This document shows positions 2,626 through 52,261 of a stretch of 64,000 nt of DNA, piece by piece. Source of the DNA: a virus (lineage: Duplodnaviria; Heunggongvirae; Uroviricota; Caudoviricetes); IMG/VR virus record IMGVR_UViG_3300032007_000002. The stretch is one strand, 5' to 3'. The notes beneath the pieces were generated by a model that was not told the origin of the DNA, searched no databases, and saw only the letters and a list, made by a program, of their open reading frames with translations. Made by a program: the position numbers and the translations under genes. How positions within the stretch are numbered: the first letter of the stretch is position 1; every line of letters begins with the position of its first letter.

Positions 2626-2838
2626 TCACGGGATTTCGTAGCCGTATTGGGCCTTGACGCCCTTGCCTGCCAATGCTTCAACCGCCTTTTGCCCGTCCGC
2701 CAAGTCCATGAAGGGCGGTTCGTCACTTTGGGGCGCCTGCTCGCCATTCTTGTTGAAGAACACCCATTGGTATTCATCGGGCTTTGCGTTCGGGTTCTTT
2801 GCATATACGCAAACTTGCATTTCGGAATAGCTCTTCAT
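2626..2838 (-). CDS. Hypothetical early cassette protein (70 aa)
   Basis: ATG after cassette RBS. Confidence 0.75.
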   Translation of the reverse strand: MKSYSEMQVCVYAKNPNAKPDEYQWVFFNKNGEQAPQSDEPPFMDLADGQKAVEALAGKGVKAQYGYEIP

Positions 2839-2925
2839 AAAAATCTCCTTGTTGGTGCTCCCCCTATGTTACGGTGCAAAATCAAAAATTAAATTTTCCC
2901 GTGATTCCGGCCCGCCACGGCACGG

Positions 2926-2944
2926 AAAAGGGGCTTGCGCCCCC
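2926..2944 (-). terminator. Recurrent intrinsic terminator GGGGC-GCAA-GCCCC-TTTT closing cassettes (representative copy)
   Basis: GC stem, GNRA loop and U-tract directly after the stop codon. Near-identical copies at 4789-4807, 5317-5335, 10624-10642; variants at about 5806-5823, 8767-8785, 10172-10198, 10932-10953. Confidence 0.85.
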
Positions 2945-2947
2945 TTG

Positions 2948-3892: not shown

Positions 3893-3962
3893 GTTGTCTC
3901 CTTTGGTTGGTGCTCTCCCTATGTGATCGGGGGAAGGGAGGGAGCTGCCTCCCCCGTGATTC

Positions 3963-4205
3963 CTACGAGTTGCTCCGTCCGCGGAAGCGGTCTAGGTCGG
4001 TCTCGGCCGCATAGTCGGCCACGTAGTCAATGGCCTCCTTGTCCTCGCCAGTGAGCACGATTTCGGTCGCGTTGGGCTTTTCAAACTTCACCCTGTCAAT
4101 GTCCCCGTTGTGCTCGGGGTGCAAATTCTGAATTTTGAAATTTTCAAGGGCTTTGAGGGCGTCAAAGCAGGCGTCCTCGTCCGCGAAATGCAATGTAACT
4201 TTCAT
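3963..4205 (-). CDS. Hypothetical acidic protein (80 aa)
   Basis: ATG after cassette RBS. Confidence 0.75.
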   Translation of the reverse strand: MKVTLHFADEDACFDALKALENFKIQNLHPEHNGDIDRVKFEKPNATEIVLTGEDKEAIDYVADYAAETDLDRFRGRSNS

Positions 4206-4327
4206 TTTTCAATCTCCTTTCGGTGTCCACCCTATGTTACGGCCGGACCCGCACGCGCACGAGCGGCCCGTGATTCCCTCCCGTCACGGGTGCACAAAAG
4301 GGCACCCCATGGGGGCGCCTTCCGGTA

Positions 4328-4687
4328 TCATAGGTATGGTCTCTGCATGTCGTCTATGCGGCCATACGGGAGGAACGAGACACTTCGTCGGCGGGTCTGG
4401 TCAATCCTTACGGCCACTTCCTGTTCGCCACGGCTCAGGCGTTCCACGTATGCGTCCACCGTCACCCCGTCCTCTATTCGGAGTATGTGGTGCGAGGTCT
4501 TGGACACGGCCACGTAGCCGCCACCCTCTTCGTGGCATACCCACGAGCCGTCCTGGATGGCGTCAAACGTCTTCGGCATGATTACCACGCCCGAGCTGTC
4601 CGCCATTCGGAGTACGTCATCGCACGGGATTTCGGCCGCGAATGCGAGCATCGCGAAGATGGAAATTAAAAATAAGATTTTTTTCAA
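4328..4687 (-). CDS. Putative exported protein with signal peptide (about 119 aa, TTG start)
   Basis: MKKILFLISIFAMLAFA signal-like N-terminus after AAAGGAGA. Confidence 0.65.
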   Translation of the reverse strand: MKKILFLISIFAMLAFAAEIPCDDVLRMADSSGVVIMPKTFDAIQDGSWVCHEEGGGYVAVSKTSHHILRIEDGVTVDAYVERLSRGEQEVAVRIDQTRRRSVSFLPYGRIDDMQRPYL

Positions 4688-4812
4688 TCTGTCTCCTTTG
4701 TTGTTTGTTTCGTTTTCGGTATGCCCTCTATGTGATCGGGGAGGGCGGCGTAGACCCGCTTCCCGTGATTCCGGCGCCGGACGGCAAGAAAAAGGGGCTT
4801 GCGCCCCTTCCC

Positions 4813-5229
4813 CTAGCTGAGGGAGTCCAGCTCGTTTTTCCAGTCCTTCCACACGCGCCAGGCCTCGTCATTGAGGCGCTTGACTTCGTCTTCGGTTGCC
4901 GCGACTTCGGTGGACGTGTCGTCGACGTCGCCCGTCTTCGGGTTGTACGGCATGTTCCAGTCCACGTCAAAGTCGCATTGCATGGCGTTATTGCTATGCT
5001 GGTATGCGATTTTGGAGTTGATACGCCACGTGCCGTCCGCGTTTGGGGTGCCTGCAGGCGCCTTGTCGTACCCGTCCGACCAGCCCAGCACGATGAAGAG
5101 GCCCGTGCCCCCGTCCGTTTCGGCCACCTTCTTGTAGCAGCAGCCGCACTTCTGTTCGTTGAGCCACTTGATGGAGGAAACCAAAAATTCCAAATCAATC
5201 TTTTCAAAATCTTTTTTTGTTGTAGCCAT
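4813..5229 (-). CDS. Hypothetical acidic protein (138 aa)
   Basis: Cassette RBS upstream and terminator downstream. Confidence 0.8.
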   Translation of the reverse strand: MATTKKDFEKIDLEFLVSSIKWLNEQKCGCCYKKVAETDGGTGLFIVLGWSDGYDKAPAGTPNADGTWRINSKIAYQHSNNAMQCDFDVDWNMPYNPKTGDVDDTSTEVAATEDEVKRLNDEAWRVWKDWKNELDSLS

Positions 5230-5339
5230 GAGCTATCTCCTTGTTGGTATGCTCCCTATGTTATCGGCGGGAGCTGCATGATCTGTAAACCCGTGATTCC
5301 GTCTCCCCACGGGCCGAAAAAGGGGCTTGCGCCCCTCGG

Positions 5340-5717
5340 CTAGATTTCAGCCGGATCGAGTTCCACGATACGGAGTATGTAGGACGGGCTCGTGGCGTGG
5401 CGCCTAATGAAGGTCTTGTTCGGGGCGCTCATTTCCACCCATCCCTCGTGTTTGAGCTTTACGAGGTATTTCTTGAAGAGCGGGGCGAAGTTGAAGGCCC
5501 ACCCCATGAGCTTGTAAATCCCGTGGCGGTATGTTTCGCGGTGCCAAAGTTCGCTGAAGTAGGTGTCTTCCCACTTCTGTTCCTCTTCGGTGAGCTTGCG
5601 CTTTTCCGAATAGGCCTGCATGAGCTTGCAGAGGTTATTGTCCTTGTAATCCTCGCGCTTGGTGCTGAGGTCGTGGGAAACGAACTTGAAAACGAGTGAA
5701 AGCGGTTCAAAAGCCAT
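5340..5717 (-). CDS. Hypothetical early cassette protein (125 aa)
   Basis: Cassette RBS upstream and terminator downstream. Confidence 0.8.
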   Translation of the reverse strand: MAFEPLSLVFKFVSHDLSTKREDYKDNNLCKLMQAYSEKRKLTEEEQKWEDTYFSELWHRETYRHGIYKLMGWAFNFAPLFKKYLVKLKHEGWVEMSAPNKTFIRRHATSPSYILRIVELDPAEI

Positions 5718-5821
5718 GTTGTATCTCCTTGTTGGTACGCTCCCTATGTGACGGGCGGGAGCGATCCCGTGCAATGCCCCGTGATTCCTGCACGGGGAGG
5801 GGCGAAAAAGGGGCCACGCCC

Positions 5822-6154
5822 CTAGTCCACCTTCCTGATCGTCTCGTCGAAGCCGAGCGAGAGGGCTTCCCCCTCTTCAAGCACATGCAGAGAATACACG
5901 TGCATGGAGCCGTCAGTGTGCTGCGCGTTGAAGCTCTCCAAAGCAAGGCGATTATAGCCACGCTTGAAGCGTCCCCAGCCCTTATAGTTCGCAAAACGGA
6001 TATACCAGCCTTCATTTTCGTACTTTTCGAGGAAGCTGGCCATGCGCTTGGCCCCATTCAATCGCCCTACCACGGGCATCACTTCGCGGGTGTCGTCAGT
6101 GCCGGGCTTCGAACGCTTGATAATGATTTGACAGACTATTTTCGCTTTTGCCAT
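5822..6154 (-). CDS. Hypothetical early cassette protein (110 aa)
   Basis: Start MAKAK after cassette RBS. Confidence 0.75.
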   Translation of the reverse strand: MAKAKIVCQIIIKRSKPGTDDTREVMPVVGRLNGAKRMASFLEKYENEGWYIRFANYKGWGRFKRGYNRLALESFNAQHTDGSMHVYSLHVLEEGEALSLGFDETIRKVD

Positions 6155-6290
6155 ATCGGCCTCCCTTGTTGGTAGGCTCCCTATGTGACGGGGGGACGCC
6201 CTGCCAGGACGCCCCCCGTGATTCCGACACTCCAACCAGGGGATCGGGTCACGGCCCCGTGTCGGGAAGGCCGCCCCGTCAAAGTTCGTT

Positions 6291-6872
6291 CTACGGGTCC
6301 CCCATCTTGTAGATGAGGCCCATTCTTGCCCGCTGCTTGACGCGGGTCGCAAATTTCGGGTTGTTCTCCAATGTGTTGAGGTTGTACCATGCGCGGACCT
6401 GGGGCACGTTGGCGAAGTCGCCCGGGCCGAACCCCTCGCCGAAGTCCAGGGCCTCCATCCAGGCGCCCACGGAAGTCGCCACGATGACATCGGGACACGA
6501 CCTGGCCATGAACCGGAACACGTAGCCGTTATGGCTGCCCCAGCCGTAGGCGCACACCCAGCGGGCCGAGCGGCCCTTCTTGGCGTATGGCTGCCACATG
6601 GTGAGGAACGAGAAGCCCAGGTCGGGGCAACGCTCCCCGAACTCCACGCCCATCTCTTCGGCCGTGTAGTTGAAATACTTCCCGCTTTTCAGTCTGTATT
6701 CACAGACTGCGGTCCCCGAGACCTCGATTGCGGTGCCGCCCTTGATTTCGTAGGCGAACGGCTCCCCGTGCGAGGAATACGTATAGTCGTATCGGGGGTT
6801 GGTCGGTGTCCTGTACTCCTGCGATGCGGCAATGACCACCGACAGCAATGCCAAAATAAAACTTTTTTTCAT
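6291..6872 (-). CDS. Putative exported protein with signal peptide (193 aa)
   Basis: MKKSFILALLSVVIAA N-terminus; preceded by a degenerate box and a TTTTGCTATATTTC promoter at 6952-6965. Confidence 0.7.
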   Translation of the reverse strand: MKKSFILALLSVVIAASQEYRTPTNPRYDYTYSSHGEPFAYEIKGGTAIEVSGTAVCEYRLKSGKYFNYTAEEMGVEFGERCPDLGFSFLTMWQPYAKKGRSARWVCAYGWGSHNGYVFRFMARSCPDVIVATSVGAWMEALDFGEGFGPGDFANVPQVRAWYNLNTLENNPKFATRVKQRARMGLIYKMGDP

Positions 6873-7068
6873 GATTGAGACCATTGTCCCTGCTCCTGCT
6901 GGTATGTTCTTGCGTTGGGCGGCCTTCTAGCGGCTACCGTGATTCCAGCAGGAAATATAGCAAAATTTCGATTAGCCCGTGATGCGGATCATTTTGTCTT
7001 CCTTGTCGATGTCTCGTTATCGGGACGGGTATCGGGACACATTGTCCCGAGCCTCCCGAGGTGCCGCC

Positions 7069-7239
7069 CTATCGGGACAGCGCCTGCCTCCAATACCACA
7101 CCACGAACCCGCTGCCGTGTGGCGTCACCACCGCGCGGTGGTTCTTCCATGACGGGTGGGCCTTGTTGTAACCGTCCGCGAAGGCGTTCGCCCCCGCTTC
7201 CGTGTCCTTGAAGACGAACGTCTTCACCAGCTTGCTCAT
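7069..7239 (-). CDS. Small hypothetical protein (56 aa)
   Basis: Start overlaps the stop of the upstream gene. Confidence 0.55.
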   Translation of the reverse strand: MSKLVKTFVFKDTEAGANAFADGYNKAHPSWKNHRAVVTPHGSGFVVWYWRQALSR

Positions 7240-7433
7240 GTCAGCATCCCCCACGCCCCGTTGAACACTTTTGTCATGCCGTAGCAGGTCGCCTTCACGA
7301 TGGAGCAGGCGAAGCTGGCCGTGGAGCTTACGGCGTTGGAGAGGTTGCCGGAGCAGTTGTAGTTTCCGCTAAACGCGCCCACCGAGAAGAAGATGGCGAG
7401 AGCGATGATGAGGACTTTAACCCAAGTTTTCAT
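7236..7433 (-). CDS. Small membrane/exported protein (65 aa)
   Basis: Hydrophobic N-terminus after cassette RBS. Confidence 0.7.
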   Translation of the reverse strand: MKTWVKVLIIALAIFFSVGAFSGNYNCSGNLSNAVSSTASFACSIVKATCYGMTKVFNGAWGMLT

Positions 7434-7503
7434 TTCAATCTCCTTGTTGGTACTCCTCCTATGTTACGGGGGAGAGTGAAGGGCCCCGAAAGGCCCGTGA
7501 TTC

Positions 7504-7887
7504 CTATGCGGCGGAGGCCCTCTTCGCGACGTAGGCGTTCCATTCCTCGGCATACTTCTGACGGCTCTCCATGCAGGTGAGAAGCGTGCCCTTGCCGTTA
7601 AACCAGTTCTCGTTTACCATGCCCGCATAGTCCGTGAGTGTCTTCTTGTCTTTCGGCTTGTTCATGACAGCAGCGAGTTCGTTCGTGCCGAAGCAGAGCG
7701 TTTTGCCGTGGGCTTCCGCATTGACGAACGGCCCCCATCCATCATTGATTTCATAGGCTTTTTCTTCCGCTTCCTTTTCCGAAGCCATTTCCACCTCGTA
7801 GTGACGGACGAGGTTGAGGGGCTTCTCTGCATCTTCCCTCATGGTATTTAAAATCTTGTTTGCCTGTTCCTGTTCTGCGATACTCAT
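7504..7887 (-). CDS. Hypothetical early cassette protein (127 aa)
   Basis: ATG after cassette RBS. Confidence 0.8.
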   Translation of the reverse strand: MSIAEQEQANKILNTMREDAEKPLNLVRHYEVEMASEKEAEEKAYEINDGWGPFVNAEAHGKTLCFGTNELAAVMNKPKDKKTLTDYAGMVNENWFNGKGTLLTCMESRQKYAEEWNAYVAKRASAA

Positions 7888-7989
7888 GGTTTAATCTCCC
7901 TTGTTGGTACGCTCCCTATGTTACAGGGAGGAAGGGCCGCCCTTTAAAGCCCGTGATTCCGGTGCAGGGAAGGACAAAAAGGGATGGCC

Positions 7990-8679
7990 CTATGGGCCGA
8001 TCACCTTTGCCTTTGCTACATAGTCTATGTTCGTTGCGGGCGGCATGAACGACTTTACAATTTCCCGCTTGCCAGGGCCTTCGTTCAGCAATTTTAAATA
8101 ATTTTCCGCCTCGGGTTTTGACGCGAACGGGGGCGAAACAATATAATCTTTCCCGCTATATTCTTCTTCTCCCGTTTCGTTGGTAACTACTTCGGCCTGC
8201 ACGAAAAACATGTCTTTGATGGGGCGGCACTTATGTTCGTGGATTTCCCCGAAGGTCATGCGGATAAGGTCGCGGCTGTTGTGGGTTACGGGGTTCTCGT
8301 GTTCGTCAAAGTGGAGACCGCTGATATTATCCCCCGCATAGATACTGAGACTCCAGCCGTCCTTCTTGTAGTATTCGAGGAACACGCGGGCCTCTTCAAA
8401 TCGGGACGCGAGCGAGGCGAGGGAGGCGAGCGGTTCGGGAATGGGCGGGCGCTGGTTGAGCCACCCGAGTTTTCTGTTTTCCACCATGCGGTCGGCTTCC
8501 CGCTTGAAGCTGTCGAGCACGTTGAAATACTTGTCGCCACCGTAGCGGGCATGCAGGTAGTCAACGAACTTCTTGACGTCTTCCTTGAAGGCGGTGTTTC
8601 GGGCGGGGTTGAAATGCTGGGTAAAGTCTTCTTTCGGGTTGTTCGGGTCGGTCGGGCCGAGGTTCAAGGTCGCTATCAT
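7990..8679 (-). CDS. Hypothetical early cassette protein (229 aa)
   Basis: ATG after cassette RBS. Confidence 0.8.
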   Translation of the reverse strand: MIATLNLGPTDPNNPKEDFTQHFNPARNTAFKEDVKKFVDYLHARYGGDKYFNVLDSFKREADRMVENRKLGWLNQRPPIPEPLASLASLASRFEEARVFLEYYKKDGWSLSIYAGDNISGLHFDEHENPVTHNSRDLIRMTFGEIHEHKCRPIKDMFFVQAEVVTNETGEEEYSGKDYIVSPPFASKPEAENYLKLLNEGPGKREIVKSFMPPATNIDYVAKAKVIGP

Positions 8680-8784
8680 GTTCAATCTCCTTGTTGGTAT
8701 GCTCCCTATGTGATCGGGGAGGGAGGACCCCGAGGAACCCCCGTGATTCCGTCACGGGAGGGGAGGAAAAAGGGGTCTCCGCCC

Positions 8785-9009
8785 CTAGCACCTGATACAT
8801 TCGTCAAAGTGCAGGCGGAGGCCGTTCACGACCACGTAGGGGCGGCCCGCTTTGGTGGAGCGGACGCGGACGCGGTGGACGCTCTTTTTGGAGCACCACG
8901 CACCCGACACGCACACACAGATTTCGTCATTCAGTTCCTTGACTTCGCAACCGCCCAATGCGGACCAATAGCCAACGGACTTTTTAGCAAGGATTTCGGC
9001 ACGAGACAT
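8785..9009 (-). CDS. Small hypothetical phage protein (74 aa)
   Basis: ORF followed by terminator; about 110 nt from box at 9122. Confidence 0.65.
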   Translation of the reverse strand: MSRAEILAKKSVGYWSALGGCEVKELNDEICVCVSGAWCSKKSVHRVRVRSTKAGRPYVVVNGLRLHFDECIRC

Positions 9010-9239
9010 AAGCACCCCGATTTTAAAAATTTTTGCACGTCCGGCCGAGGGGGTAGTCTCCCGATTAAGTTCGGGACTGACATTTAGCCCCTCGGCCTTC
9101 CGTGTCGTTTCGACAAGCTCCCTATGTGATCGGCAGGAAAATAAAATTTATTTTCCCCGTGATTCCGCCAGCCCAGAGGAAAAGAAAAAACACGGGGCTT
9201 TCGCCCCGTGGGGATTGCGTTGTTCTCCTTTTTGGCGGT

Positions 9240-9683
9240 TTAGGCCGCTTTTGCGGCCTCGTTGCGTACCTGTCTCATTACGTAGCTCTTAATCTTGGAG
9301 ACGGCCTTAAAGAGGGCGTTCGCTTCGATTTCACGGGAGTGCGAGCGGTTGCGCTTACGCTGAGAGGGCGGGCAGCAACGCTCAAGGATCTCCTCATCGT
9401 AGATGATGAAGTTGCCGCCCATGCTCGCCTCGCTGCAGAGGGACTTGACTTTCGGGAGGGCGTCCTTCCCCCAAATCTTGTTAAGGGTGTAGTTGTTGCC
9501 GTCCACATGGTTGAGGAGGTGTCCCAAATTTAGGGCGGTAATTTCGCTGTCGCCGTTCACGTCGGAGTAGTCGCCCGAAATGATCGGGTCAAGCATGTCG
9601 ATGGCGTAGGCGATAACGCCACGGCCGAACTGGCTCTTTGCGGTTTCGTTCTTGATTTCGTTGTAAAGGTCTTTAATGTTCAT
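9240..9683 (-). CDS. Hypothetical early cassette protein (147 aa)
   Basis: ATG after cassette RBS; terminator at about 9180-9212. Confidence 0.8.
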   Translation of the reverse strand: MNIKDLYNEIKNETAKSQFGRGVIAYAIDMLDPIISGDYSDVNGDSEITALNLGHLLNHVDGNNYTLNKIWGKDALPKVKSLCSEASMGGNFIIYDEEILERCCPPSQRKRNRSHSREIEANALFKAVSKIKSYVMRQVRNEAAKAA

Positions 9684-9757
9684 GGTTAATCTCCCTTGTT
9701 GGTAATCACTCTATGTTACGGGCATTGAACCCCCTTCGGGGTTCCCCCGTGATTCCG

Positions 9758-10009
9758 TCAATACTCGAACTCTATGTCCCCGTCCTTGAAGATGTCCTGC
9801 GGGATGGGTTCCCCGTCCGTGGTGGTCTCGTTTTCGAGGCACGCCTGCGGTATGTAGGTGTTGCCCCCGAATTGTACCATCCCATGAGCTAGGGCGTCTT
9901 TAAGCGGTTCCGTGTCGCCCGCTTTGAGCCTGCGGAGCTCGTCAATACTCAGGTTCACGCTCGCCCCGAGACGGAACCAAACAGCTACCCTCTTATTTCC
10001 ATCGGCCAT
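9758..10009 (-). CDS. Hypothetical protein (83 aa)
   Basis: GGGGGCG RBS-like sequence and coding-like composition. Confidence 0.65.
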   Translation of the reverse strand: MADGNKRVAVWFRLGASVNLSIDELRRLKAGDTEPLKDALAHGMVQFGGNTYIPQACLENETTTDGEPIPQDIFKDGDIEFEY

Positions 10010-10197
10010 AATCGCCCCCTATCTTAGGTTATTGGCCACTAGCGTGGCGAGTACCATGAATGATAATAAAAACGCCCACATAGTGACCTCCATCGGTTGA
10101 CAGGCTCCCTATGTGATCGGGGAGGGAGATCCCCAGCACCACGCCCGTGATTCCGCCCGCCCACGGGAGCGAAAAGAGGGGGCTTGCGCCCGCCCTC

Positions 10198-10533
10198 TTA
10201 CATGGTCTTATAGACAATTTGGCCGCCCTCAACGTCAATCACGACACTATCGGGGCGGAACCCTAATATTTCGTCTAGGCTCTTAAATCCGCCCTCTTCG
10301 TCGGGGCGGCTCGCCTTATAGACCTCTTCGGCCGTCATCTTCTTTTCGCACTCCCGCCAATCATTGCGGAACGTCAGGCCGTGGATGGGGGCAAAGTCTT
10401 TGCCATCTTCGGACATGGCTTCGACTTCGCCCACGGCATTATCCCAAATTGCGGGGTGGCTCATGCCCGTATCTTCGCACTTGTAAATGGCGTTGGGCAT
10501 GGGGGAACGTGTATCTACTGCAACGAGAAACAT
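10198..10533 (-). CDS. Hypothetical early cassette protein (111 aa)
   Basis: Start MFLVA after cassette RBS. Confidence 0.75.
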   Translation of the reverse strand: MFLVAVDTRSPMPNAIYKCEDTGMSHPAIWDNAVGEVEAMSEDGKDFAPIHGLTFRNDWRECEKKMTAEEVYKASRPDEEGGFKSLDEILGFRPDSVVIDVEGGQIVYKTM

Positions 10534-10646
10534 TGTCAATCTCCTATCGGTTGGTGCTCTCCCTATGTGATCGGGGAGGGAGATCCCCCGCGTGCGCCCG
10601 TGATTCCGACGGCCCACGGCGCGAAAAAGGGGCTTGCGCCCCTCGT

Positions 10647-10841
10647 TTACGGCCTCAGATAGCGGTTCAATGCAACAATGTTCTTGAACGGGAAACAGAT
10701 TTTGCTTTTCGGGTCAAGGACGGCCGTTATGGAGCCATCCGCGCAAAACGTTAAATCCCCGTTTGGATAGTTTTTCAGAAATTTCTTGCGGATGAACTTT
10801 TTCATGTTGGTGGAATAGGCTTCAATAGTCTTGTTGGGCAT
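10647..10841 (-). CDS. Small basic hypothetical protein (64 aa)
   Basis: Cassette RBS upstream and terminator downstream. Confidence 0.7.
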   Translation of the reverse strand: MPNKTIEAYSTNMKKFIRKKFLKNYPNGDLTFCADGSITAVLDPKSKICFPFKNIVALNRYLRP

Positions 10842-10999
10842 AAGCAATCTCCTTTCGGTTGGTAGTCTCCCTATGTGATCGGGGAGGGAGCTTCCCCGTA
10901 TACGCCCGTGATTCCGCCATCACACGGGCGGAAAAGAGGGCTTTCGCCCTCTTCCCCGTGCTGGTTGATGTTCCCCCTATGTGACGAGTAAAAAGGCGG

Positions 11000-11260
11000 T
11001 TAAGCCTCTTTAATGAGTTGCCACTCAAACCGCATTAAACGCACGTTTAACTCTCGGCTGATTTTCCAGCCCACGAGCATAACGCGGGCGAGCATGCACT
11101 CATAATAGACCTGTCCTGTCCGCATATCTACATATATGCGGTTCAAAAACGCCCCGCCGGCGTGTTTGGCACGCTCCCATGCGGCTCGGGCGAGCTGCTT
11201 CATGTAGAGCATGTTGGCTTTAATGCACTGCATCATGGTGTTAATCGGCTTCAAGATCAT
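11000..11260 (-). CDS. Hypothetical early cassette protein (86 aa)
   Basis: ATG after cassette RBS. Confidence 0.7.
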   Translation of the reverse strand: MILKPINTMMQCIKANMLYMKQLARAAWERAKHAGGAFLNRIYVDMRTGQVYYECMLARVMLVGWKISRELNVRLMRFEWQLIKEA

Positions 11261-11398
11261 AAGTATCTCCCTTGTTGGTGCTCTCCCTATGTTACGCGTA
11301 TGCGTGCGGGAGATCCCTGTCCCGTGATTCCGGCAATGTTTCATGTGAAACAATGGCCGACCGTGGGTTCGGAGTAGCACCCACGGGCGACCGCTCTG

Positions 11399-11533
11399 TT
11401 AGTCTTCGCTGTCGCCGAACAATGCCGTAAACGCGTCATCTAATTCGCGTTCAAGCGAGTTCTGATAGACGATAAAGCCCTCATCTTCAAGTTCAGCGGT
11501 GACTTCTTTGCGAGCGTCTTCTTTTTGTGCCAT
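11399..11533 (-). CDS. Acidic 44-aa peptide, first coding cassette of the array
   Basis: Hand translation MAQKEDARKEVTAELEDEGFIVYQNSLERELDDAFTALFGDSED after AAGGAGAT; below the ORF-track length cut-off. Confidence 0.7.
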   Translation of the reverse strand: MAQKEDARKEVTAELEDEGFIVYQNSLERELDDAFTALFGDSED

Positions 11534-11577
11534 GGTAGCATCTCCTTGTTGGTGCTCTCCCTATGTGAAGGGCGGAT

Positions 11578-11912
11578 TTGCCGTTAGGGTCTTCCCCCGT
11601 GATTCCGTGCAGGGGAGTTAAAAGGGAAGCCCCTAGCATTGGACCTGGCAAGCTATCTAGTTCGCGACCTAGTCAGCTAATGCGTGTCCCTCAGCTAGGG
11701 GCTTTTGCGGATGGCAGGCGAGGGGATTTCAGCGACAACAAGAGGACGTTTATGTCCTGCCGTCAGTGGCTTGTCGTGTTCCTCGGCTTAACGCTGCCAT
11801 CCATTGGCTCCGCAGGTTCCTATCCTGCTGCCGAACGTAACCACCCTATGTGATCGGCCTGTCCGTTTGCCGTTAGGACGCCGTGATTCCCCCAGGTCGA
11901 TTTGCCGTTAGG
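11578..11912. repeat. TTTGCCGTTAGG direct repeat x3
   Basis: Copies at about 11578, 11866 and 11901; two sit inside or next to cassette boxes. Confidence 0.7.
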
Positions 11913-12668: not shown

Positions 12669-12760
12669 GGTATAGATCCTCCATAATGTTAATGAATGTT
12701 TACATGCCGTCGATGTACTTGCTGGCGGCCATGTATTGTAACTCGGTTCGAGCCCTCGTA

Positions 12761-13700
12761 GCTGTCAACGGCCTTCAAACCGTGGCCGTTTCGAGCGTGA
12801 GCATAAGATGCGGTGCTGTCAACGGCCTTCACGTCATGACCGTTTCGAGCGACGGTGAGTTCGGTGGGACGAACTTGGAAGCTGTCAGCGGCCTACGTTT
12901 CGCGACCGTATCGAGCAAAATGTGGTCGAAATATTTATATGTTCGCTGTCAACGGCCGTCAAAACATGGCCGTTTCGAGCCTTTCGTCGCATACGTCGCA
13001 ACACATCGGTGCTGTCAACGGCCTTTAAACCGTGACCGTTTCGAGCGGGCTTTAATTGCGTGCTACGAAGCATGCTGCTGTCGGCGGCCTTCAACCCGTG
13101 ACCGTTTCGAGCACTGAACCTTAAAAAAGGACTTCACTAGCTGTCAACGGCCTCATATTTCGACCGTTTCGAGCCTTCGAGATAACACTACCAGCATCCT
13201 CCTTGCTGTCAACGGCCTTTAAATCCCAACCGTTTCGAGCCTGCATCCTTGACACACCATCATCTGCTGCTGTCAACGGCCTGCAAGTTCCAACCGTTTC
13301 GAGCGGTGATTGTGACACCATCCGTGACCACCGAGCTGTCAACGGCCCCAAAATTCCGACCGTTTCGAGCGCCATTAGCTCTTCCTCTTTCCTCTCTTTC
13401 GCTGTCAACGGTCTACATATTCCGACCGTTTCGAGCATCCATTCCTCATCGACAGAGGCAATGGCGGCTGTCAACGGCCTACATATTCCGACCGTTTCGA
13501 GCCCTGCTATATAACAACAACAGCTTATAGCCGCTGTCAACAGCCTACATATTCCGGCCGTTTCGAGCATACTCCTATATCACACAAACCCTGGGGGTGC
13601 TGTCAACGGCCTCCAAATTCCGACCGTTTCGAGCCAAAAATTTTGTTAATTTCGCAATATGGCTGCTGTCAACGGCCTCCAAATTCCGACCGTTTCGAGC
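12761..13700 (-). CRISPR. CRISPR array, 15 repeats of 36 bp (one 35 bp) and 14 spacers (mostly 30 bp; range 18-30)
   Basis: Plus-strand repeat starts: 12761, 12815, 12881, 12945, 13011, 13077, 13140, 13205, 13269, 13335, 13401, 13467, 13533, 13599, 13665. Minus-strand leader-proximal repeat GCTCGAAACGGTCGGAATTTGGAGGCCGTTGACAGC with stem AACGGTC/GGCCGTT. Unique spacers; divergence increases away from the effector. Confidence 0.97.
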
Positions 13701-35595: not shown

Positions 35596-35652
35596 ATTTT
35601 CACCTTTGTGTGAAATATAGCAAAAAACTCCGCCAAGATGGCGGAGTTTCAG

Positions 35653-35725
35653 TGGACCAGGTGGGACTTGAACCCACACTCCCCGGGTTATGAGTCCGAC
35701 GCTTTTACCATTAAGCTACCGGTCC
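35653..35725 (-). tRNA. tRNA with CAU anticodon, probably Ile2 (lysidine-modified) rather than Met; no encoded CCA
   Basis: GGACCGG/CTGGTCC acceptor stem, D-loop GG, CT-CAT-AA loop, GGTTCAAGTCC T-arm, discriminator A then CTG. C4-G69/C5-G68 are TilS-type determinants; A31:C39 mismatch. Confidence 0.88.
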
Positions 35726-44895: not shown

Positions 44896-44913
44896 GCTTG
44901 AAATATAGCAAAA

Positions 44914-46648: not shown

Positions 46649-47002
46649 TTACTCCTTGCCTGTCTGCACAGGCTTAATATCAGCGCATTTTGCCTCCGGC
46701 ATCTGGCCGAACGGCGTAGGTCCCGTTACGAGGGTGCTGGAGAATCCCAGGATGGACGGGAAGAACTCATGGTCGTCATCGTCCTCGATGATGTTCCTGC
46801 ACGCCCTGATGGCCTGGCCCATCGACGAGTAGTGTTTCGCCGTTGCCGGGTTGTCGCTGCATTCGCAGAAGCGCTCATTCTGGAGCCATCCGCGGTTGAG
46901 CATCTTGCCCCGGCACTTCCACTGGATGAACACGAGAAAGCAGTCGAAGGTCATGCCCGGTTCCGGGAACTTGCGTTCCTCGTATGGGAGTGCCTTAGCC
47001 AT
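46649..47002 (-). CDS. Hypothetical protein (117 aa)
   Basis: Operon packing. Confidence 0.6.
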   Translation of the reverse strand: MAKALPYEERKFPEPGMTFDCFLVFIQWKCRGKMLNRGWLQNERFCECSDNPATAKHYSSMGQAIRACRNIIEDDDDHEFFPSILGFSSTLVTGPTPFGQMPEAKCADIKPVQTGKE

Positions 47003-48128
47003 TCTTGAGCTCCCTCAGCGCGGCTTCCACCGGCTGGATGTAGTAGAGCTCCTTGTTCGGGACGGCCACGTTGGTGTGTTCCTTGAAGTCGCACACCAGG
47101 CCGTCAATCGGGGCGACAATCTTTTCCTGGGTCCCGTCGACGCAGTAGATGGTGCCGAGCTCGGTGCCGGCCTTCACCGGTCTGGAAGCGATGTCGGTGG
47201 CGTCGGAAGTATATTCGATGAACCCGTACTTGCCGTAGTGGTAGATTTCCTGGCACATGGCGTTGGTGGTGAACGGGGTGGACTGCTTGAAGAAGTCCTC
47301 GTATTCCCAGAAATATTCCCCGCCACAGGTTTTTCTTTCGCCGTTGTAGTAGTTCGGGGTGATTGCACAGTTCTTTCGAATATGGCTAATCGCGTCAAGC
47401 AGCTTGTGGAGGAACTCGGTCTGCTTGCGGAGCAGGTCTGCCTGGCCCGGGCAGTCGCCCATGCCGCCGAGCTCGATGGTGAAGCCCACGCGGCCCTGCT
47501 CGATGGCATAGCGCTTGATCGTGTCGGTTGGACCGTTGCGGACCATGAAGTCAAGGCCCTGCTCGTGGCAGAACTTCACGTATGTCTTGGCATACGGGCC
47601 GTTGTCGATGAGGACGCAGTTGTGGCACAGCGGGGAGTTGTGGATGTCGATGACGATGTCCGCGCTGGAAATATGGCGCTTGACCGAGTCGATTGTACCC
47701 GTGAGTGTGCAGCGGACAGAGCCGGGCTCCGAGCGGAAGGCGCGGTTGAGGTTGCCCTTGGGGTCGCCGTGGATGCGTTCCGGCTTCTTCGGCGCTCCCG
47801 GTGCCGGAGGGACGAGGCCGTAGTCGTTGCGGTCCGGCTCTTCCGTGAACTCCCTGGTGCCGTGGATGAGGCCGTAGGGGTTCACGCCCGCCAGGATCTG
47901 CATGCGGCCGTGCATGTTCCCGCTTTCGTGGCGGTCCTTGAAAGTCCTGAACATGTCGAGCGATGCGAGGACGGCAAGCTGTTCCGGCCCGTGGACGCCG
48001 CTCACGACGAGCGTGGACGGGTAGTATTCGCCGGTCGGGGAATGGTAGTCGGGTTTGCCGAAAGAGTCGGAAATGTATGCGGGATAGGCGCCTGCCGGCA
48101 AAACCTTGATTTCGGGGGTCTGGATCAT
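46995..48128 (-). CDS. M14-like Zn hydrolase, succinylglutamate desuccinylase/aspartoacylase family (377 aa)
   Basis: GVHGPE (HxxE), NP.G...R, NLNRAF, IDIH motifs; C-terminal hybrid-barrel-like domain. Confidence 0.75.
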   Translation of the reverse strand: MIQTPEIKVLPAGAYPAYISDSFGKPDYHSPTGEYYPSTLVVSGVHGPEQLAVLASLDMFRTFKDRHESGNMHGRMQILAGVNPYGLIHGTREFTEEPDRNDYGLVPPAPGAPKKPERIHGDPKGNLNRAFRSEPGSVRCTLTGTIDSVKRHISSADIVIDIHNSPLCHNCVLIDNGPYAKTYVKFCHEQGLDFMVRNGPTDTIKRYAIEQGRVGFTIELGGMGDCPGQADLLRKQTEFLHKLLDAISHIRKNCAITPNYYNGERKTCGGEYFWEYEDFFKQSTPFTTNAMCQEIYHYGKYGFIEYTSDATDIASRPVKAGTELGTIYCVDGTQEKIVAPIDGLVCDFKEHTNVAVPNKELYYIQPVEAALRELKNG

Positions 48129-48398: not shown

Positions 48399-48854
48399 TT
48401 ATTTGCCCCATGCCCTTTTGAGAAGACGCCAGTAGGTCAGGTCGTCCGGGTTTCTAAATGCCCATTTCCATGCGGCCGCAATCGGGATGAAGATGCCGAA
48501 AATAAACCCAAATATCGCCAAAATCACTCCCAAGACGAGGCCGGCAAAAACGGTAATGACAAATATTATCGATCGGGCAGGATGCAGGTCAACCCATTCC
48601 ACCTTGCCGACACGGGTCGCCACCTCGTTGCCGCATGTTCCCTTGACCACCGACGCGGATTTCGTCTTCGGGTTGAAAACGACGGCCCTCGGCCCGTCGC
48701 ACTGCGGATCTTCCACGACTGTCTGGAAGCACTGGACGCTTGCCGGAAAGGTTCTTTTGTCGTTGGTCTTGACGATGTAGGCATTGTGTGACAGCAACGC
48801 CACGATGACGATTGTAGGGATGAGCACGATTGCCATGCGCAAGATTTGTTTCAT
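48399..48854 (-). CDS. Membrane protein (151 aa)
   Basis: N- and C-terminal hydrophobic segments; GAGG RBS. Confidence 0.7.
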   Translation of the reverse strand: MKQILRMAIVLIPTIVIVALLSHNAYIVKTNDKRTFPASVQCFQTVVEDPQCDGPRAVVFNPKTKSASVVKGTCGNEVATRVGKVEWVDLHPARSIIFVITVFAGLVLGVILAIFGFIFGIFIPIAAAWKWAFRNPDDLTYWRLLKRAWGK

Positions 48855-48872
48855 ATTTATCCTCATTGAAAA

Positions 48873-49190
48873 TGCCGGTAATTCGACACGCCAAGCCGCC
48901 AGGATACGATCGCTCTCCAGGCCATTTTCGACTTCCCGTCACCTACTCCCTACCCGCTGGGCTGGATCCCTTTCGTCACACGCCCCCCGCTTGTCGGGAC
49001 ATTTCAGCAAGACTACACCTCGGGCCGTTGTCAGCCGCAGGACAGGTTCACCCCACTTAGTCACCCCGACCGCAACAGGCGCTCCCGTCAGGGCAGCTTT
49101 CGCAGTTCCGGTATCGGATCGGTTCGGTCTTTTGTCGGCATCCGCCGGGCGTCCCCGGGCGGTGCGGATTGGCATGCCGGATTACCGGCA
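48873..49190 (-). ncRNA. Putative ~318-nt structured non-coding RNA of unknown class
   Basis: Begins right after a TTGCTATATTTT promoter; ends pair perfectly (TGCCGGTAAT/ATTACCGGCA) followed by TTTT; internal GC hairpins; no convincing ORF. Confidence 0.6.
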
Positions 49191-49210
49191 CAGCTAAAAT
49201 ATAGCAATTT

Positions 49211-52200
49211 TTATCTTGTCCGAGTCGCCTTCCTCGACTTTTTTCTTCTCACCATGTACGGGGTGAAGTAGGAGACCCTGCTGTTGCTTCGTATGTCCAG
49301 GCAATATCCGTTCTCCTCCGGCTGCACGGTGACCGCGATTACGTCCTCGTTGATGCGGTCCGAGTGCACGCGGAAGTCTATGCCGTTCGCCACGGAGGAC
49401 GAGCCGTACCGGAGGCCGAGCATCTCCGCGCGGCGGTTCACCACGCCGGCCATCGCCAGCGGATAGTCGATGACATCCCTGACCGTCTGGGCATGCGGCG
49501 TCCGGGTTTGCAGTTCGAGCAGGGAACGGACACCCGGTACATTCGCCGGCCAGGACGACGGTTTCGCACCGTGACGCTCCTGGGTCTTCGAGCTGCAGAG
49601 GTCGAGCATGTCGATTTCGTCCTTGGTCTCGTCCCCGACGCATACCGCGTCGATGCCGATTGCCGGGAGCAGACGCCCGATAGACTCCCTCTGCGGTATC
49701 TTCATGCCCCCGCCCACGCGTTTCGACTTCGGTGTCGGTTTCGGTGTCGGTATATTTTCGCCGATTTCCTGCATTACGGCGTCAGCGACCTCCTGGCCCT
49801 GCATCTGGGCCAAATCATCGTGCGCCTGGATGACGAAGTTGTCCGCGTCGAACCGGTTCTGCTGCTTCGGGATCTCCCGGAACCCGAACGCGGCGAACGC
49901 CGCATACACGTCGCTCGCTGCCGGCAAGCGGAGTTCCTCGGTCTCCAGGGCGCCCTTCGCGGTGTCCGGGTAGAGGATTGTACCGTCGTCGAACCGGATG
50001 ACCGTCCTGTCGGAATAGCCGAGCTCGGTCAGCCGCTTCTCCCCCTCGGTAGCCGGATGTTCGGACAGTGCGACATACGGGGCGTGGGTGTAGCCGGAAA
50101 CGGGGCCGTCCTTGGCCGGGCAGATGAACGGGCACCCGTAGTGCAGGGTGCACCACTTGAATTCCGCCACCTGCATTTCGTCCTTGTTCATGTAGAAGGA
50201 CGAAATCGTGTCGAGGTCGCTATAGACGAGCTCCGTGCCGCGGTCAAGATCGATCGTCCCCTCGTCCGCGCCGTAGTAGATGGCGCGTCCTCGCCAGGTG
50301 CCACGGCACATGGAGTGCTTTATCTCGTGCCTGAGCGTGTCAAGCGCGATGTCCACTGCATCTTCCGCATTGCCGTCAGAATGGAGGAACGCCACGTCCC
50401 GTATCGCGGCGTCGTTCAGGCTGAAACTCTTCACCGACTGGCATTCGAACATGCAGGTAATCTGTTTAAGCGTTTCCATCATCGTCTCGGGACTGCTTTC
50501 CGGCACCGCCTTCTTCAGTTCGTCCATCAGCATATCCCGGAGAGCCGGGTTGCTGTATGTCTCTACGGCATCGACCAGGCACTTGGTCTCGCACGGCGCC
50601 GGGAGGTCCTGTTCGGGATCCGCCTGCATGTCCACGCGGAGCAGGGTGTCCTTCTGCGCCGGCTGTATGGAGACGATGCGGTAGCCGCTGTCCGGGCAAT
50701 CCGGCACCTCGACACCGTTAGTGCAGCGCCTTGCAGTCTCGTTGTAGGACGGGTGCAGCGCGATGAGCTTCCCGTTGACGAGCAGCATCGGGATGAACAG
50801 GTCCATCCCGGCGCGAAGGGCCGTGAACTGACCGGTGACGCGGTTCTTTATGACCGCCCGGTTGAACCCGCGCGGCAGGTACATCGCGTGATAGGTGTAT
50901 TCCGGGGTATCAGGCTGGTGGTCCGGGTTGGCCCGGCCGTTGTCCTGCCTCTGGATATGCGCGGTGGAGCGCAGGTCGAATCTCGCCGACGAAATCCTGC
51001 GGATGGCATCGTCCTTGTATGCCTCGAACCCGGCGTCGTAATGCGGTTTCCAGAGCAGCTTGCCGGCGCTGTCGAGCGCGAGGACGTTGAACCGGAACTT
51101 CAGTTCCTCCTGCACGCACTCCGACATGATGTCATTCGGGAGGCTGACCGTGTCGAACCCTTCCGGGATGTAGTCCAGCGGGCTGGTCGTCCAGGAACTG
51201 TCCCCGATGCGGACGGTCCCGTATGTCCTGCCGGTCCTCGGGTCGGCGATGGACACGCCGCCCCTGCCCACCTTCGCGCCCTTCTCGAACACGCGGGAGC
51301 ATACGGCGGCTTCCCGCTTGACCATGCGGTTGTGCAGGTTGATTTCGTCCACGATGGTGCGGAGGCGCTCGCGCTCGTCATGGACGGTGTAGGGAGGACA
51401 CAGCTCGAAGAACGGGCCGCCGAGGAGCATGGAAAGTTCGACCTCGGAATACTTGTTGTCGCCCTTGCGCTCGTCCACGTTGTCGTGATGGTGGTTCCAG
51501 CGGTTGTTGACATGGACCAGGCGCCCGCCCGGGCCGATGTCTATGCCGAGCATGGATTCGCCGTAGAGCTCGTCCTCCTCGGTCATCGTTTCGAAACCCG
51601 GCAGGACTGCCAGGTATAGGCGGACGAAGTTGGTCACCCCGGTCATCTTCCCGTCGACCTTGGAAAGCGCCTGCGTCTTGTGGTAGCCGTTGAAGGTGCC
51701 CTCGTAACCGAGGTGGCACCAGTCGTGCGGCTTGGTATACTCGAAATACTTGTTGGCGGTCTCGAAGCAGTCCAGCTCGATAATCCTGTACCTGCGCGGG
51801 CCGTACTTCATGCGTCTCAGCCTGCGCTTCATCTTGCACCAGTCCGCGGTCACCTTGGTCCCGTAGACGGCTTCCAGGGAACGGTAGGTGGCCAGTTGGC
51901 CGTCCCTGTCGGCGAGGTGGCGGGTGTAGTCCTTGCAGTGCGCGATGGAGATGATGCGCAGGATGTCGTGGAACTGGGAAACGTCGTAGAGCTGCTCGTC
52001 GCCGGTGCCGAGCTCGAGTTCCCCGAAGGCGATGCGGGCCGCGCCAGGCGCGAAGCGGATCTTGCACTGGCCGTCGCGGAAGAACGTCGCGCGGAGGTCC
52101 ATGTAGGCCGCGCGTGTCCATGACGAGATGCCGCGGTTTCGGGCGACCTCGGCATAGATTTCCTGGAGCCTCCCGGCGTTCGGGAGGCCCATGAGTACCT

Positions 52201-52261
52201 TCTTGGTGTAGCGGTAGGCGTCGCCCTCGCTACCGTATGTGTCCTGGGAACGGTTGTCCAT
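49211..52261 (-). CDS. Very large hypothetical protein (1016 aa)
   Basis: Longest ORF in the window; phage-like codon usage; no recognised catalytic motif. Confidence 0.8.
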   Translation of the reverse strand: MDNRSQDTYGSEGDAYRYTKKVLMGLPNAGRLQEIYAEVARNRGISSWTRAAYMDLRATFFRDGQCKIRFAPGAARIAFGELELGTGDEQLYDVSQFHDILRIISIAHCKDYTRHLADRDGQLATYRSLEAVYGTKVTADWCKMKRRLRRMKYGPRRYRIIELDCFETANKYFEYTKPHDWCHLGYEGTFNGYHKTQALSKVDGKMTGVTNFVRLYLAVLPGFETMTEEDELYGESMLGIDIGPGGRLVHVNNRWNHHHDNVDERKGDNKYSEVELSMLLGGPFFELCPPYTVHDERERLRTIVDEINLHNRMVKREAAVCSRVFEKGAKVGRGGVSIADPRTGRTYGTVRIGDSSWTTSPLDYIPEGFDTVSLPNDIMSECVQEELKFRFNVLALDSAGKLLWKPHYDAGFEAYKDDAIRRISSARFDLRSTAHIQRQDNGRANPDHQPDTPEYTYHAMYLPRGFNRAVIKNRVTGQFTALRAGMDLFIPMLLVNGKLIALHPSYNETARRCTNGVEVPDCPDSGYRIVSIQPAQKDTLLRVDMQADPEQDLPAPCETKCLVDAVETYSNPALRDMLMDELKKAVPESSPETMMETLKQITCMFECQSVKSFSLNDAAIRDVAFLHSDGNAEDAVDIALDTLRHEIKHSMCRGTWRGRAIYYGADEGTIDLDRGTELVYSDLDTISSFYMNKDEMQVAEFKWCTLHYGCPFICPAKDGPVSGYTHAPYVALSEHPATEGEKRLTELGYSDRTVIRFDDGTILYPDTAKGALETEELRLPAASDVYAAFAAFGFREIPKQQNRFDADNFVIQAHDDLAQMQGQEVADAVMQEIGENIPTPKPTPKSKRVGGGMKIPQRESIGRLLPAIGIDAVCVGDETKDEIDMLDLCSSKTQERHGAKPSSWPANVPGVRSLLELQTRTPHAQTVRDVIDYPLAMAGVVNRRAEMLGLRYGSSSVANGIDFRVHSDRINEDVIAVTVQPEENGYCLDIRSNSRVSYFTPYMVRRKKSRKATRTR

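What the first reader, a model, noticed from the sequence alone, without database searches (positions are those of the whole stretch)
48873..49190. Unclassified ~318-nt structured RNA with its own promoter
Seen: the only long gene-free stretch in this operon block. It starts a few nt after TTGCTATATTTT, its 5' and 3' ends form a perfect 10-bp helix followed by a U-tract, and it has internal hairpins (CCGCC-GGG/GACG/CCC-GGCGG, GAAA loops). I could not see RNase P, tmRNA or SRP signatures. Inference: a novel phage ncRNA (ribozyme, protein sponge or RNA anti-defence), or a large cis-regulatory leader for the downstream membrane gene.
Basis: partly seen in the sequence, partly recalled or inferred. 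Interest (0 to 1): 0.7.

Follow-up and report, generated by a model that had tools for sequence, protein, structure and literature searches.

The report
Uncatalogued structured RNA of rumen megaphage
A giant rumen phage and its close relatives carry a conserved, non-coding, tightly folded RNA of about 320 bases behind one of the phage's own promoters. It matches no catalogued RNA family, and its job is still unknown.

Summary
Window 48868-49191, minus strand, is the only long gene-free gap in a tightly packed gene block. It starts 6 nt after a copy of TTGCTATATTT. That motif occurs 17 times in the window, always on the coding strand. The two ends of the stretch pair in a 24-bp helix followed by UUUU.

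- **Fold:** the sense strand folds far better than shuffles (z -3.3 to -4.7 in five lineages). The antisense strand does not.
- **Distribution:** fifteen related metagenome contigs carry it at the same place.
- **Conservation:** it is 93-100% identical across them, while four-fold degenerate sites in the flanking genes are 81-92% identical. Indels of 1, 1 and 5 nt break every reading frame.
- **Known families:** Rfam 15 and ARAGORN give no match.
- **Limits:** covariation is too thin to prove the fold. More distant phage relatives lack the element. Expression could not be tested.

It is most likely a stand-alone RNA whose ends pair in a stem, with transcription reading through it to feed the downstream operon. 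A purely cis-acting leader remains a serious rival.

This scan has not found this RNA on other DNA. Earlier notes do report other uncatalogued RNAs in the same phage genome. Interest is moderate.

The parts
49197..49207 (-). Promoter-like motif TTGCTATATTT, preceded by an A/T-rich stretch
   Evidence: One of 17 copies in the window, all on the minus strand and none on the plus strand. In eight copies the ATG of the next gene begins 5-6 nt after the motif, which implies leaderless mRNAs. The motif is invariant in all relatives.
49191..49191 (-). Predicted transcription start, G in most copies and A in L009, L017 and L031
   Evidence: It holds the same position after the motif as the A of ATG in the leaderless genes. 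It is also the first base of the closing helix, as G-U or A-U with U48872. This is an inference; no transcript data were available.
48868..49191 (-). The RNA element as a whole, 324 nt including the U-tract
   Evidence: Sense-strand fold z -3.39, and -3.3 to -4.7 in four other lineages. It is present in 15 related contigs at 93-100% identity. No frame is conserved.
49166..49191 (-). P1 closing helix, 5' strand. Its first 18 nt (49174-49191) can instead form a local 7-bp hairpin
   Evidence: 24 pairs, of which 22 never vary and 2 vary only between G-C/G-U or G-U/A-U. The local hairpin has -12.7 kcal/mol.
48872..48897 (-). P1 closing helix, 3' strand
   Evidence: Three G-U pairs in P1 would be A-C mismatches on the other strand.
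49138..49165 (-). P2 hairpin, GCACCGCCCGGG-GACG-CCCGGCGGAUGC
   Evidence: -18.9 kcal/mol on its own. Its changes are G-C to G-U and C-G to U-G, with one broken cell.
49094..49137 (-). Variable 5' arm with 4-5 tandem C(C/U)GA(A/U) units and a GAAA hairpin
   Evidence: This is the most variable part. The indels of 1, 1 and 5 nt lie here or at its 5' border, in the 3' strand of P2.
48968..49093 (-). Long central arm, the core domain, holding a 46-nt stretch that is invariant in 11 of the 12 aligned sequences
   Evidence: Same fold in every lineage. It contains the single two-sided change, A-U to G-C at A4 columns 119/217. Model R1 was built from it.
48949..48965 (-). Small hairpin P10
   Evidence: Predicted by RNAalifold. 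96% of cells are paired, with G-U/G-C variation.
48898..48922 (-). 3' hairpin P11 with a palindromic CGAUCG apex
   Evidence: Invariant in all copies. Predicted in every lineage.
48869..48872 (-). U-tract directly after P1. U48872 is also the last pair of P1
   Evidence: Invariant; UUUUU in L001. A role in termination is inferred, not shown.
48860..48864 (-). GAGGA ribosome-binding site of the downstream gene, 8 nt after P1
   Evidence: Read from the sequence. Conserved in relatives.
48399..48854 (-). Downstream 151-aa membrane protein gene, first of seven genes with no other copy of the promoter motif before 44911
   Evidence: Translation shows hydrophobic segments at the N and C termini. Relatives' gene calls give 151 aa.
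49211..52261 (-). Upstream 1016-aa gene of unknown function. Its stop codon lies 4 nt before the promoter motif
   Evidence: No Pfam, PHROG, NCBIfam or PDB match. Homologues with 77-98% identity over the searched C-terminal part (residues 600-1016; 84-97% over the full length) are always followed by the RNA. Homologues of 49-59% identity are not.

Best explanation
This is the gene of a roughly 320-nt non-coding RNA that is specific to one narrow clade of rumen megaphages.

The proposed steps are these.
1. The RNA is transcribed from a copy of the phage's own TTGCTATATTT promoter class, starting at G49191.
2. It folds into a multi-branched structure: P2, a variable arm with short repeats, a long invariant central arm, P10 and P11.
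3. The whole fold is closed by a 24-bp helix between its first and last bases.
4. That closing helix and the following U-tract act as a leaky terminator, a double-strand processing stem, or both. A stable, end-protected RNA is released.
5. Transcripts that read through carry the message for the seven genes downstream, which have no promoter copy of their own.
6. The released RNA most likely works in trans as a folded scaffold or binding partner for a phage or host component.

Shown: non-coding status, purifying selection, a strand-specific stable fold, the promoter-motif context, and the absence from known families. Inferred: the start point, the 3' end, the release of a free RNA, and action in trans.
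For: - **Promoter context.** There are 17 motif copies, all on the coding strand. Every other copy whose downstream start codon could be read lies 36 nt or less before it. This copy lies 337 nt before the next one.
- **Ends match the helix.** The predicted first base opens the closing helix, and the helix ends exactly at the U-tract.
- **Strand-specific stability.** Sense z is -3.39 and -3.3 to -4.7 in four further lineages. Antisense z is -0.25 to -1.9. Sixteen of the 99 predicted pairs are G-U.
- **Local outlier.** GC-adjusted folding energy is the second most extreme of 394 windows.
- **Selection.** Identity to the window is 92.9-98.1%, against 80.6-91.8% at four-fold degenerate sites of the four flanking genes. 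That matches codon positions 1+2.
- **Pattern of variation.** 26% of unpaired columns vary against 10.6% of paired columns, Fisher p = 3e-4. Ten of 18 variable pairs keep pairing in every sequence.
- **Not coding.** Indels of 1, 1 and 5 nt change the frame after codon 16, and all frames contain stops.
- **Synteny.** All 15 close relatives keep it between the same two genes. This includes L007 and L008, where recombination replaced the distal half of the downstream gene and the genes after it.
- **An RNA-gene slot.** In the distant relatives L013-L015 the position after the homologous gene holds tRNA arrays.
Against:
- Covariation is not significant. There is one two-sided change, and 140 of 500 shuffles do as well. 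An all-pairs scan shows that lineage structure alone produces many apparent covariations.
- The U-tract is only four U's, and the terminator stem is a long-range helix, which is unusual for intrinsic termination.
- The downstream operon has no other promoter copy. At least some transcripts must therefore carry the element as a 5' leader, so a purely cis role explains the same data.
- The element is confined to a clade with 7% or less divergence. It is absent from relatives whose upstream protein is 49-59% identical.
Confidence: 0.5

Rival explanations
1. It is a purely cis-acting 5' leader, an attenuator, of the downstream seven-gene operon. The fold closes into a giant terminator hairpin just before the ribosome-binding site. 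The share of polymerases that read through would be set by folding kinetics or by a phage or host factor. The competing fold is the 5' local hairpin against P1. The short terminated RNA would be a by-product, as with the 6S transcript made from pR' ahead of the lysis genes in phage lambda (recalled knowledge).
For: The next promoter-motif copy downstream is at 44911, so the genes from 48854 to 44914 depend on transcription through the element. P1 ends 8 nt before GAGGA, and that spacing is conserved. The first 18 nt can form a -12.7 kcal/mol hairpin that excludes P1, which gives a possible switch.
Against: A leader has no need to start exactly at the first base of a helix that pairs with its last base. 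About 270 nt of conserved internal structure is far more than an attenuator needs. P1 (24 bp) is so much more stable than the alternative that an equilibrium switch is unlikely. The ribosome-binding site is not sequestered in any predicted fold. No antiterminator or ligand is identified, and the downstream genes have no assigned function.
Confidence: 0.3
2. It is a DNA-level or selfish element rather than an RNA. Candidates are a miniature inverted-repeat element that landed between two genes, or a recombination or packaging site whose inverted ends only look like a closing helix.
For: The ends form an imperfect 26-bp inverted repeat. The element has higher GC (62.7%) than the window (56.9%). 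Its distribution is patchy, since distant relatives lack it.
Against: There is a single copy in the window. The core 21-mer has no copy in 185,579 species genomes. The 11 hits of the 5' 20-mer are unrelated sequence, mostly inside coding DNA (6 of them encode ..VPVIRHA..); two are short GC-rich palindromes. The fold is strongly strand-asymmetric and rich in G-U pairs. The interior is conserved as strongly as codon positions 1+2. The left end coincides with the promoter's predicted start.
Confidence: 0.07
3. It encodes a small leaderless protein that starts at the GTG/ATG at 49191.
For: The first codon is GTG, or ATG in L009, L017 and L031. It sits exactly where the leaderless genes of this phage have their ATG. 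The window has a 44-codon open frame.
Against: One-base indels after codon 16 give unrelated tails of 34-44 residues in different lineages. No frame on either strand is kept. The G/A change at base 1 is also explained by G-U to A-U pairing in P1.
Confidence: 0.03

Closest known systems
GOLLD and ROOL: large ornate RNAs of phages and prophages, function unknown
   Same: Both are phage-borne, elaborately folded, non-coding and of unknown function. GOLLD and ROOL are often encoded near tRNA islands (bioRxiv 10.1101/2024.12.08.627333). Here the matching position in distant relatives holds tRNA arrays. ROOL was also first found in rumen samples.
   Different: There is no match to either covariance model, even at E up to 10. 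It is about 320 nt, against roughly 580 nt (recalled figure) and more than 800 nt. It occurs in one narrow clade rather than many lineages. No covariation-supported pseudoknots or multimer contacts can be shown.
Stem-closed stable-RNA transcription units: rRNA operon processing stems, and the tRNA/tmRNA operon reported for this same phage in earlier scan notes
   Same: The first and last bases of the unit pair in a long, nearly perfect duplex of about 24 bp with two 1x1 mismatches. That is the kind of duplex RNase III cuts (recalled knowledge).
   Different: Here the helix starts at the predicted transcription start, so no 5' trimming would be needed. No cleavage has been shown. The enclosed RNA is of no known type.
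Phage lambda pR'-tR' unit: the 194-nt '6S' transcript ahead of the late and lysis genes (recalled knowledge)
   Same: A promoter is followed by a short terminated RNA, which is followed at once by an operon that can only be expressed by read-through.
   Different: The lambda transcript has no large conserved fold. No Q-like antiterminator or binding site is identified here. Nothing shows that the downstream genes are lysis genes. The only hint is a weak AstE/AspA-type match in the 377-aa protein two genes further down (Pfam PF24827).
Bacterial Y RNAs and 6S RNA, whose 5' and 3' ends pair in a long stem
   Same: The closing stem formed by both ends protects the RNA and is typical of stable protein-binding RNAs.
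   Different: There is no match to these Rfam models. The interior is multi-branched, not a central bubble or a tRNA-like module. ARAGORN finds nothing here.

Membership tests
Any Rfam 15 family, including RNase P, tmRNA, SRP, 6S, Y RNA, GOLLD, ROOL, OLE, HEARO, raiA, riboswitches and self-cleaving ribozymes | A score against the family covariance model at or near the gathering threshold | tested here: not met
   The whole window at gathering thresholds gives only tRNA-Met. The 701 nt around the element at E up to 10 with lax filters give only a chance snoRNA match outside the element.
tRNA / tmRNA | Cloverleaf or tRNA-like domain with a tag reading frame | tested here: not met
   ARAGORN on the window finds only tRNA-Met at 35652-35725.
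GOLLD/ROOL-type ornate large phage RNAs (as a kind, not a family) | Encoded in phages or prophages, often beside tRNA islands | tested here: inconclusive
   It is phage-borne. No tRNA lies beside it in the window. The matching position in the distant relatives L013-L015 does hold tRNA arrays.
GOLLD/ROOL-type ornate large phage RNAs (as a kind, not a family) | Extensive secondary structure supported by covariation across many lineages | tested here: inconclusive
   Only one two-sided change occurs among 99 pairs. Shuffle controls are not exceeded. The sequences differ by 7% or less.
Stand-alone ncRNA gene | Own promoter directly upstream | tested here: met
   A copy of the 17-fold repeated, strand-specific motif ends 6 nt before the first base of P1. 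It is invariant in relatives. Promoter activity itself is inferred.
Stand-alone ncRNA gene | Own terminator and a discrete transcript | not testable with these tools
   P1 plus UUUU is terminator-like, but the helix is long-range. The consensus scan lists no terminator here.
Riboswitch or attenuator leader | Mutually exclusive structures that couple a sensor to a terminator or ribosome-binding site | tested here: inconclusive
   A 5' hairpin of -12.7 kcal/mol competes with P1. P1 is far more stable, and the ribosome-binding site is free in all folds. No ligand class can be inferred.
Protein-coding gene | A reading frame kept among relatives | tested here: not met
   Frame-shifting indels and stops in all frames.
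Miniature inverted-repeat or other mobile element | Several copies, terminal inverted repeats and target-site duplication | tested here: not met
   Inverted ends exist. There is only a single copy in the window. No true copies occur in species genomes or IMG/VR by four exact patterns and one degenerate pattern. No duplication flanks it.

The most novel reading that the evidence does not exclude
The element founds a new class of phage-encoded, trans-acting structured RNA. It could be one of a set of private RNAs that this megaphage lineage uses to assemble a particle or to capture a host or defence component. The invariant 46-nt core and the palindromic apical loop would be the functional contacts, and the copy-variable C(C/U)GA(A/U) repeats would be binding sites.
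Probability: 0.3. Interest if true: 0.7.

Novelty: new variant of a known kind. Interest (0 to 1): 0.45.

Why it matters
Large folded RNAs of phages such as GOLLD and ROOL are among the least understood RNA classes, and few are known. This element adds an uncatalogued, selection-constrained RNA with clearly readable start and end signals, from a rumen megaphage. Earlier notes of this scan say the same phage carries several other unassigned RNAs. If it is a free RNA, it is a compact candidate of about 320 nt for structure determination and partner pull-downs. If it is a leader, it would be an unusually large transcription-control element in a phage that otherwise uses leaderless messages. Either result says something about how giant phages organise late expression.

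Tried and rejected
- **Sequence searches with no result.**
  - blastn of the RNA against 50,697 GenBank phage records gave no match.
  - tblastn of the upstream and downstream proteins against the same records gave no useful match.
  - IMG/VR was scanned with three exact patterns and one structure-aware degenerate pattern. None matched.
  - The core 21-mer has no hit in one genome per 185,579 species.
  - The 5' 20-mer has 11 hits there, but they are unrelated sequence, mostly inside coding DNA (6 of them encode ..VPVIRHA..); two are short GC-rich palindromes. I rejected them.
- **Distant relatives.**
  - nhmmer and a covariance model of the 130-nt core were run on five jumbo phages whose upstream-gene homologue is 49-59% identical, including their whole records. 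The RNA is absent.
  - Their gaps at the matching position are a small conserved ORF with its own promoter-like motif and terminator, followed by tRNA arrays. They are not a homologue.
- **Models and covariation.**
  - A full-length covariance model failed to build.
  - An all-pairs covariation scan showed only lineage confounding.
- **Motifs and coding.**
  - I examined by eye a fit of the ACUAAG / (U/A)AUGU internal loop to the 11-nt GAAA tetraloop receptor. It requires a helix register that breaks neighbouring pairs, so I make no claim.
  - A small leaderless protein was rejected on frame breaks.
- **Neighbouring proteins.** The function of the 1016-aa neighbour was sought in Pfam, PHROGs, NCBIfam, PDB sequences and the ESM Atlas, with nothing found.
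- **Requests that could not run.**
  - No whole genome is held for this window.
  - ENA and Logan contigs cannot be searched whole.

Full report
**What is there.**
Genes in this part of the window run on the minus strand. The 1016-aa gene ends at 49211. The next gene most likely starts at ATG 48854, behind GAGGA at 48860-48864. The relatives' 151-aa gene calls agree with that start. The 356 nt in between are the only gap longer than 37 nt in the gene calls of a relative covering 9 kb.

On the minus strand the gap reads as follows: A/T-rich stretch, TTGCTATATTT, TAGCT, then GUGCCGGUAAUCC..., then ...GAAUUACCGGCA, UUUU, CAAU, GAGGA.

**The promoter motif.**
TTGCTATATTT, with at most one mismatch, occurs 17 times on the minus strand and never on the plus strand. 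I calculate about 0.5 copies expected per strand by chance.
- In eight copies the ATG of the next gene begins 5-6 nt after the motif. The motif therefore behaves as an extended -10-type promoter that makes leaderless messages.
- Most of the others lie 36 nt or less before a start codon preceded by a Shine-Dalgarno sequence.
- The copy at 49197-49207 is the exception, because the next start codon is 337 nt away.
- By register with the leaderless genes, transcription should start at G49191. This is an inference.
- That base is exactly the first base of the closing helix. It is G in most copies and A in three relatives, and it pairs with U48872 as G-U or A-U.

**The fold.**
- The 318-nt sense strand has an MFE of -147.8 kcal/mol, z -3.39, and no shuffle of 100 does as well. 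The antisense strand has z -0.71.
- Four other lineages give sense z -3.3 to -4.7 and antisense z -0.25 to -1.9, with the same architecture.
- Sixteen of the 99 consensus pairs are G-U, which cannot form on the other strand.
- After correcting for GC content, the region is the second most stable of 394 equal-sized windows on the minus strand.
- The consensus has these parts:
  - a 24-bp closing helix, P1, with two 1x1 mismatches;
  - a GC-rich hairpin, P2;
  - a variable arm with tandem C(C/U)GA(A/U) units and a GAAA hairpin;
  - a long central arm;
  - two small hairpins, P10 and P11.
- The first 18 nt can also form a local hairpin of -12.7 kcal/mol that excludes P1.

**Relatives.**
- The upstream protein has eight cluster representatives with 77-98% identity over the searched C-terminal part, residues 600-1016; over the full length identity is 84-97%.
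- Their contigs (L001-L010), two JGI contigs (L016, L017) and four contigs reached through the downstream protein (L029-L032) all carry the element in the same place. That makes 15 distinct related contigs beside the window, with L029 and L030 carrying the same sequence.
- In L007 and L008 a recombination replaced the distal half of the 151-aa gene and the genes behind it, while the RNA stayed.
- Five IMG/VR jumbo phages have an upstream-gene homologue of only 49-59% identity, and they lack the element. This holds for nhmmer and for a covariance model of the core run over their whole records.
- In three of them the matching position holds a small ORF followed by arrays of 4-13 tRNA genes.

**Selection and coding.**
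- Identity of the element to the window copy is 92.9-98.1%.
- Four-fold degenerate sites of the four flanking genes are 80.6-91.8% identical, and codon positions 1+2 are 90.8-98.1% identical.
- The non-coding stretch therefore evolves like constrained coding positions.
- Variable columns make up 26% of unpaired positions and 10.6% of paired positions, Fisher p = 3e-4. Ten of 18 variable pairs stay paired in all sequences.
- Indels of 1, 1 and 5 nt shift the only open frame after codon 16, and every frame has stops. It is not a protein gene.

**What is not shown.**
- Covariation does not exceed shuffle controls. There is one two-sided change, A-U to G-C.
- With only three or four lineages, many unrelated column pairs appear to covary. 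The fold therefore rests on thermodynamics, strand asymmetry and the pattern of conservation.
- No transcript evidence could be obtained.

**Known families.**
Rfam 15 gives nothing, even at E up to 10, and ARAGORN gives nothing here. Pattern scans of IMG/VR and of one genome per prokaryote species found no copy. The 11 hits of the 5' 20-mer are unrelated sequence, mostly inside coding DNA, with six of them encoding the peptide ..VPVIRHA..; two are short GC-rich palindromes.

**Mechanism.**
Two readings fit.

(a) A stand-alone RNA with stem-closed ends.
- The transcript would begin with P1 and end at P1 plus the U-tract. This is the end-protected design of many stable RNAs.
- About 270 nt of conserved interior is more than a terminator needs.

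(b) A leader.
- The next motif copy downstream is at 44911. The seven genes from 48854 to 44914 must therefore be transcribed through the element.
- The 5' hairpin could delay P1 formation and set the amount of read-through.

I favour a combined picture, with confidence 0.5. Leaky termination or double-strand processing at P1 releases a stable RNA that acts in trans, and read-through feeds the operon. A purely cis attenuator stands at 0.3. A DNA-level or mobile element is at 0.07 and a small protein at 0.03; both are disfavoured by the tests above.

**Comparison.**
- As a kind, it is closest to the orphan ornate phage RNAs GOLLD and ROOL. These are phage-borne, often lie near tRNA islands, and have unknown function (bioRxiv 10.1101/2024.12.08.627333). 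It is not a member of either family, and it is smaller and far narrower in distribution.
- Its closing stem resembles the processing stems of stable-RNA operons.
- Its position resembles the lambda pR'-6S unit. Both comparisons are from recalled knowledge.

**Earlier notes of this scan (unchecked here).**
- The same phage genome is reported to hold a ~290-nt abundant RNA behind a small helical-protein gene.
- It is also reported to hold a stem-closed tRNA/tmRNA operon and a further ~150-nt candidate.
- Fibrobacter is named there as the likely host.
- No look-alike of the present RNA has been noted on other DNA.

**Verdict.**
This is a real, conserved, uncatalogued structured RNA element with well-defined signals. 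Its function and its transcript form are still open. Interest is moderate (0.45).

Noticed in passing
window, minus strand: 60649, 59643, 56293, 53687, 49207, 44911, 40389, 40285, 35623, 32636, 30324, 26017, 24117, 23317, 19361, 16464, 6963 (first base of each motif): There are 17 copies of TTGCTATATTT, all on the coding strand. Eight lie 5-6 nt before an ATG, which implies leaderless mRNAs. Several follow directly on a hairpin plus T-run, for example at 35623. Distant relatives use a similar TTGCTATAAACA.
   Followed up: partly
window 12735-13700: An array with a 66-bp period, made of a repeat of about 36 nt and unique spacers of about 30 nt. It looks like a CRISPR array. Earlier notes of this scan assign it to a Cas-lambda-like system.
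   Followed up: no
window 1-11600: About 17 copies of an intergenic unit of about 70 nt head small minus-strand genes. On the minus strand the unit reads CGGAATCACGGG ... TAACATAGGG ... AAGGAGAT. It has already been reported in this scan as a promoter cassette array.
   Followed up: no
L013:7385-9062, L014:6945-9000, L015:6445-9200: In distant jumbo-phage relatives, the gene homologous to the 1016-aa gene is followed by three things: a promoter-like motif, a conserved small ORF of about 35 codons with a strong terminator, and arrays of 4-13 tRNA genes.
   Followed up: partly
L007:6397-8147 and L008:4124-5874: A recombination breakpoint lies inside the 151-aa membrane-protein gene, after about residue 80. 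The C-terminal half and the next genes (90 aa, 376 aa) are replaced by unrelated genes of 303 and 142 aa. The RNA and the gene's first half are kept.
   Followed up: partly
L018-L028 (genome contigs): The RNA's first 20 nt, TGCCGGTAATCCGGCATGCC, recur exactly in 11 unrelated bacterial genomes. Most hits lie inside coding DNA, and six encode the peptide ..VPVIRHA.., which I recall as a motif of 2-oxoacid dehydrogenase E2 acyltransferases. Two are short GC-rich palindromes. They are not homologues and are a trap for pattern searches.
   Followed up: yes
window, minus-strand windows starting at 11188 and 61084: Apart from the element itself, these are the two most stable GC-adjusted 324-nt windows (residual z -3.26 and -2.67). 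The first lies in the early cassette repeats. The second lies inside the TnpB-type insertion reported elsewhere in this scan, and may be its guide RNA region.
   Followed up: no
window 46995-48128 (-): A 377-aa protein two genes after the RNA has an AstE/AspA-type zinc hydrolase catalytic domain (Pfam PF24827, E 4e-12). It has no PHROG or PDB sequence match. Whether it is a cell-wall peptidase is open.
   Followed up: partly
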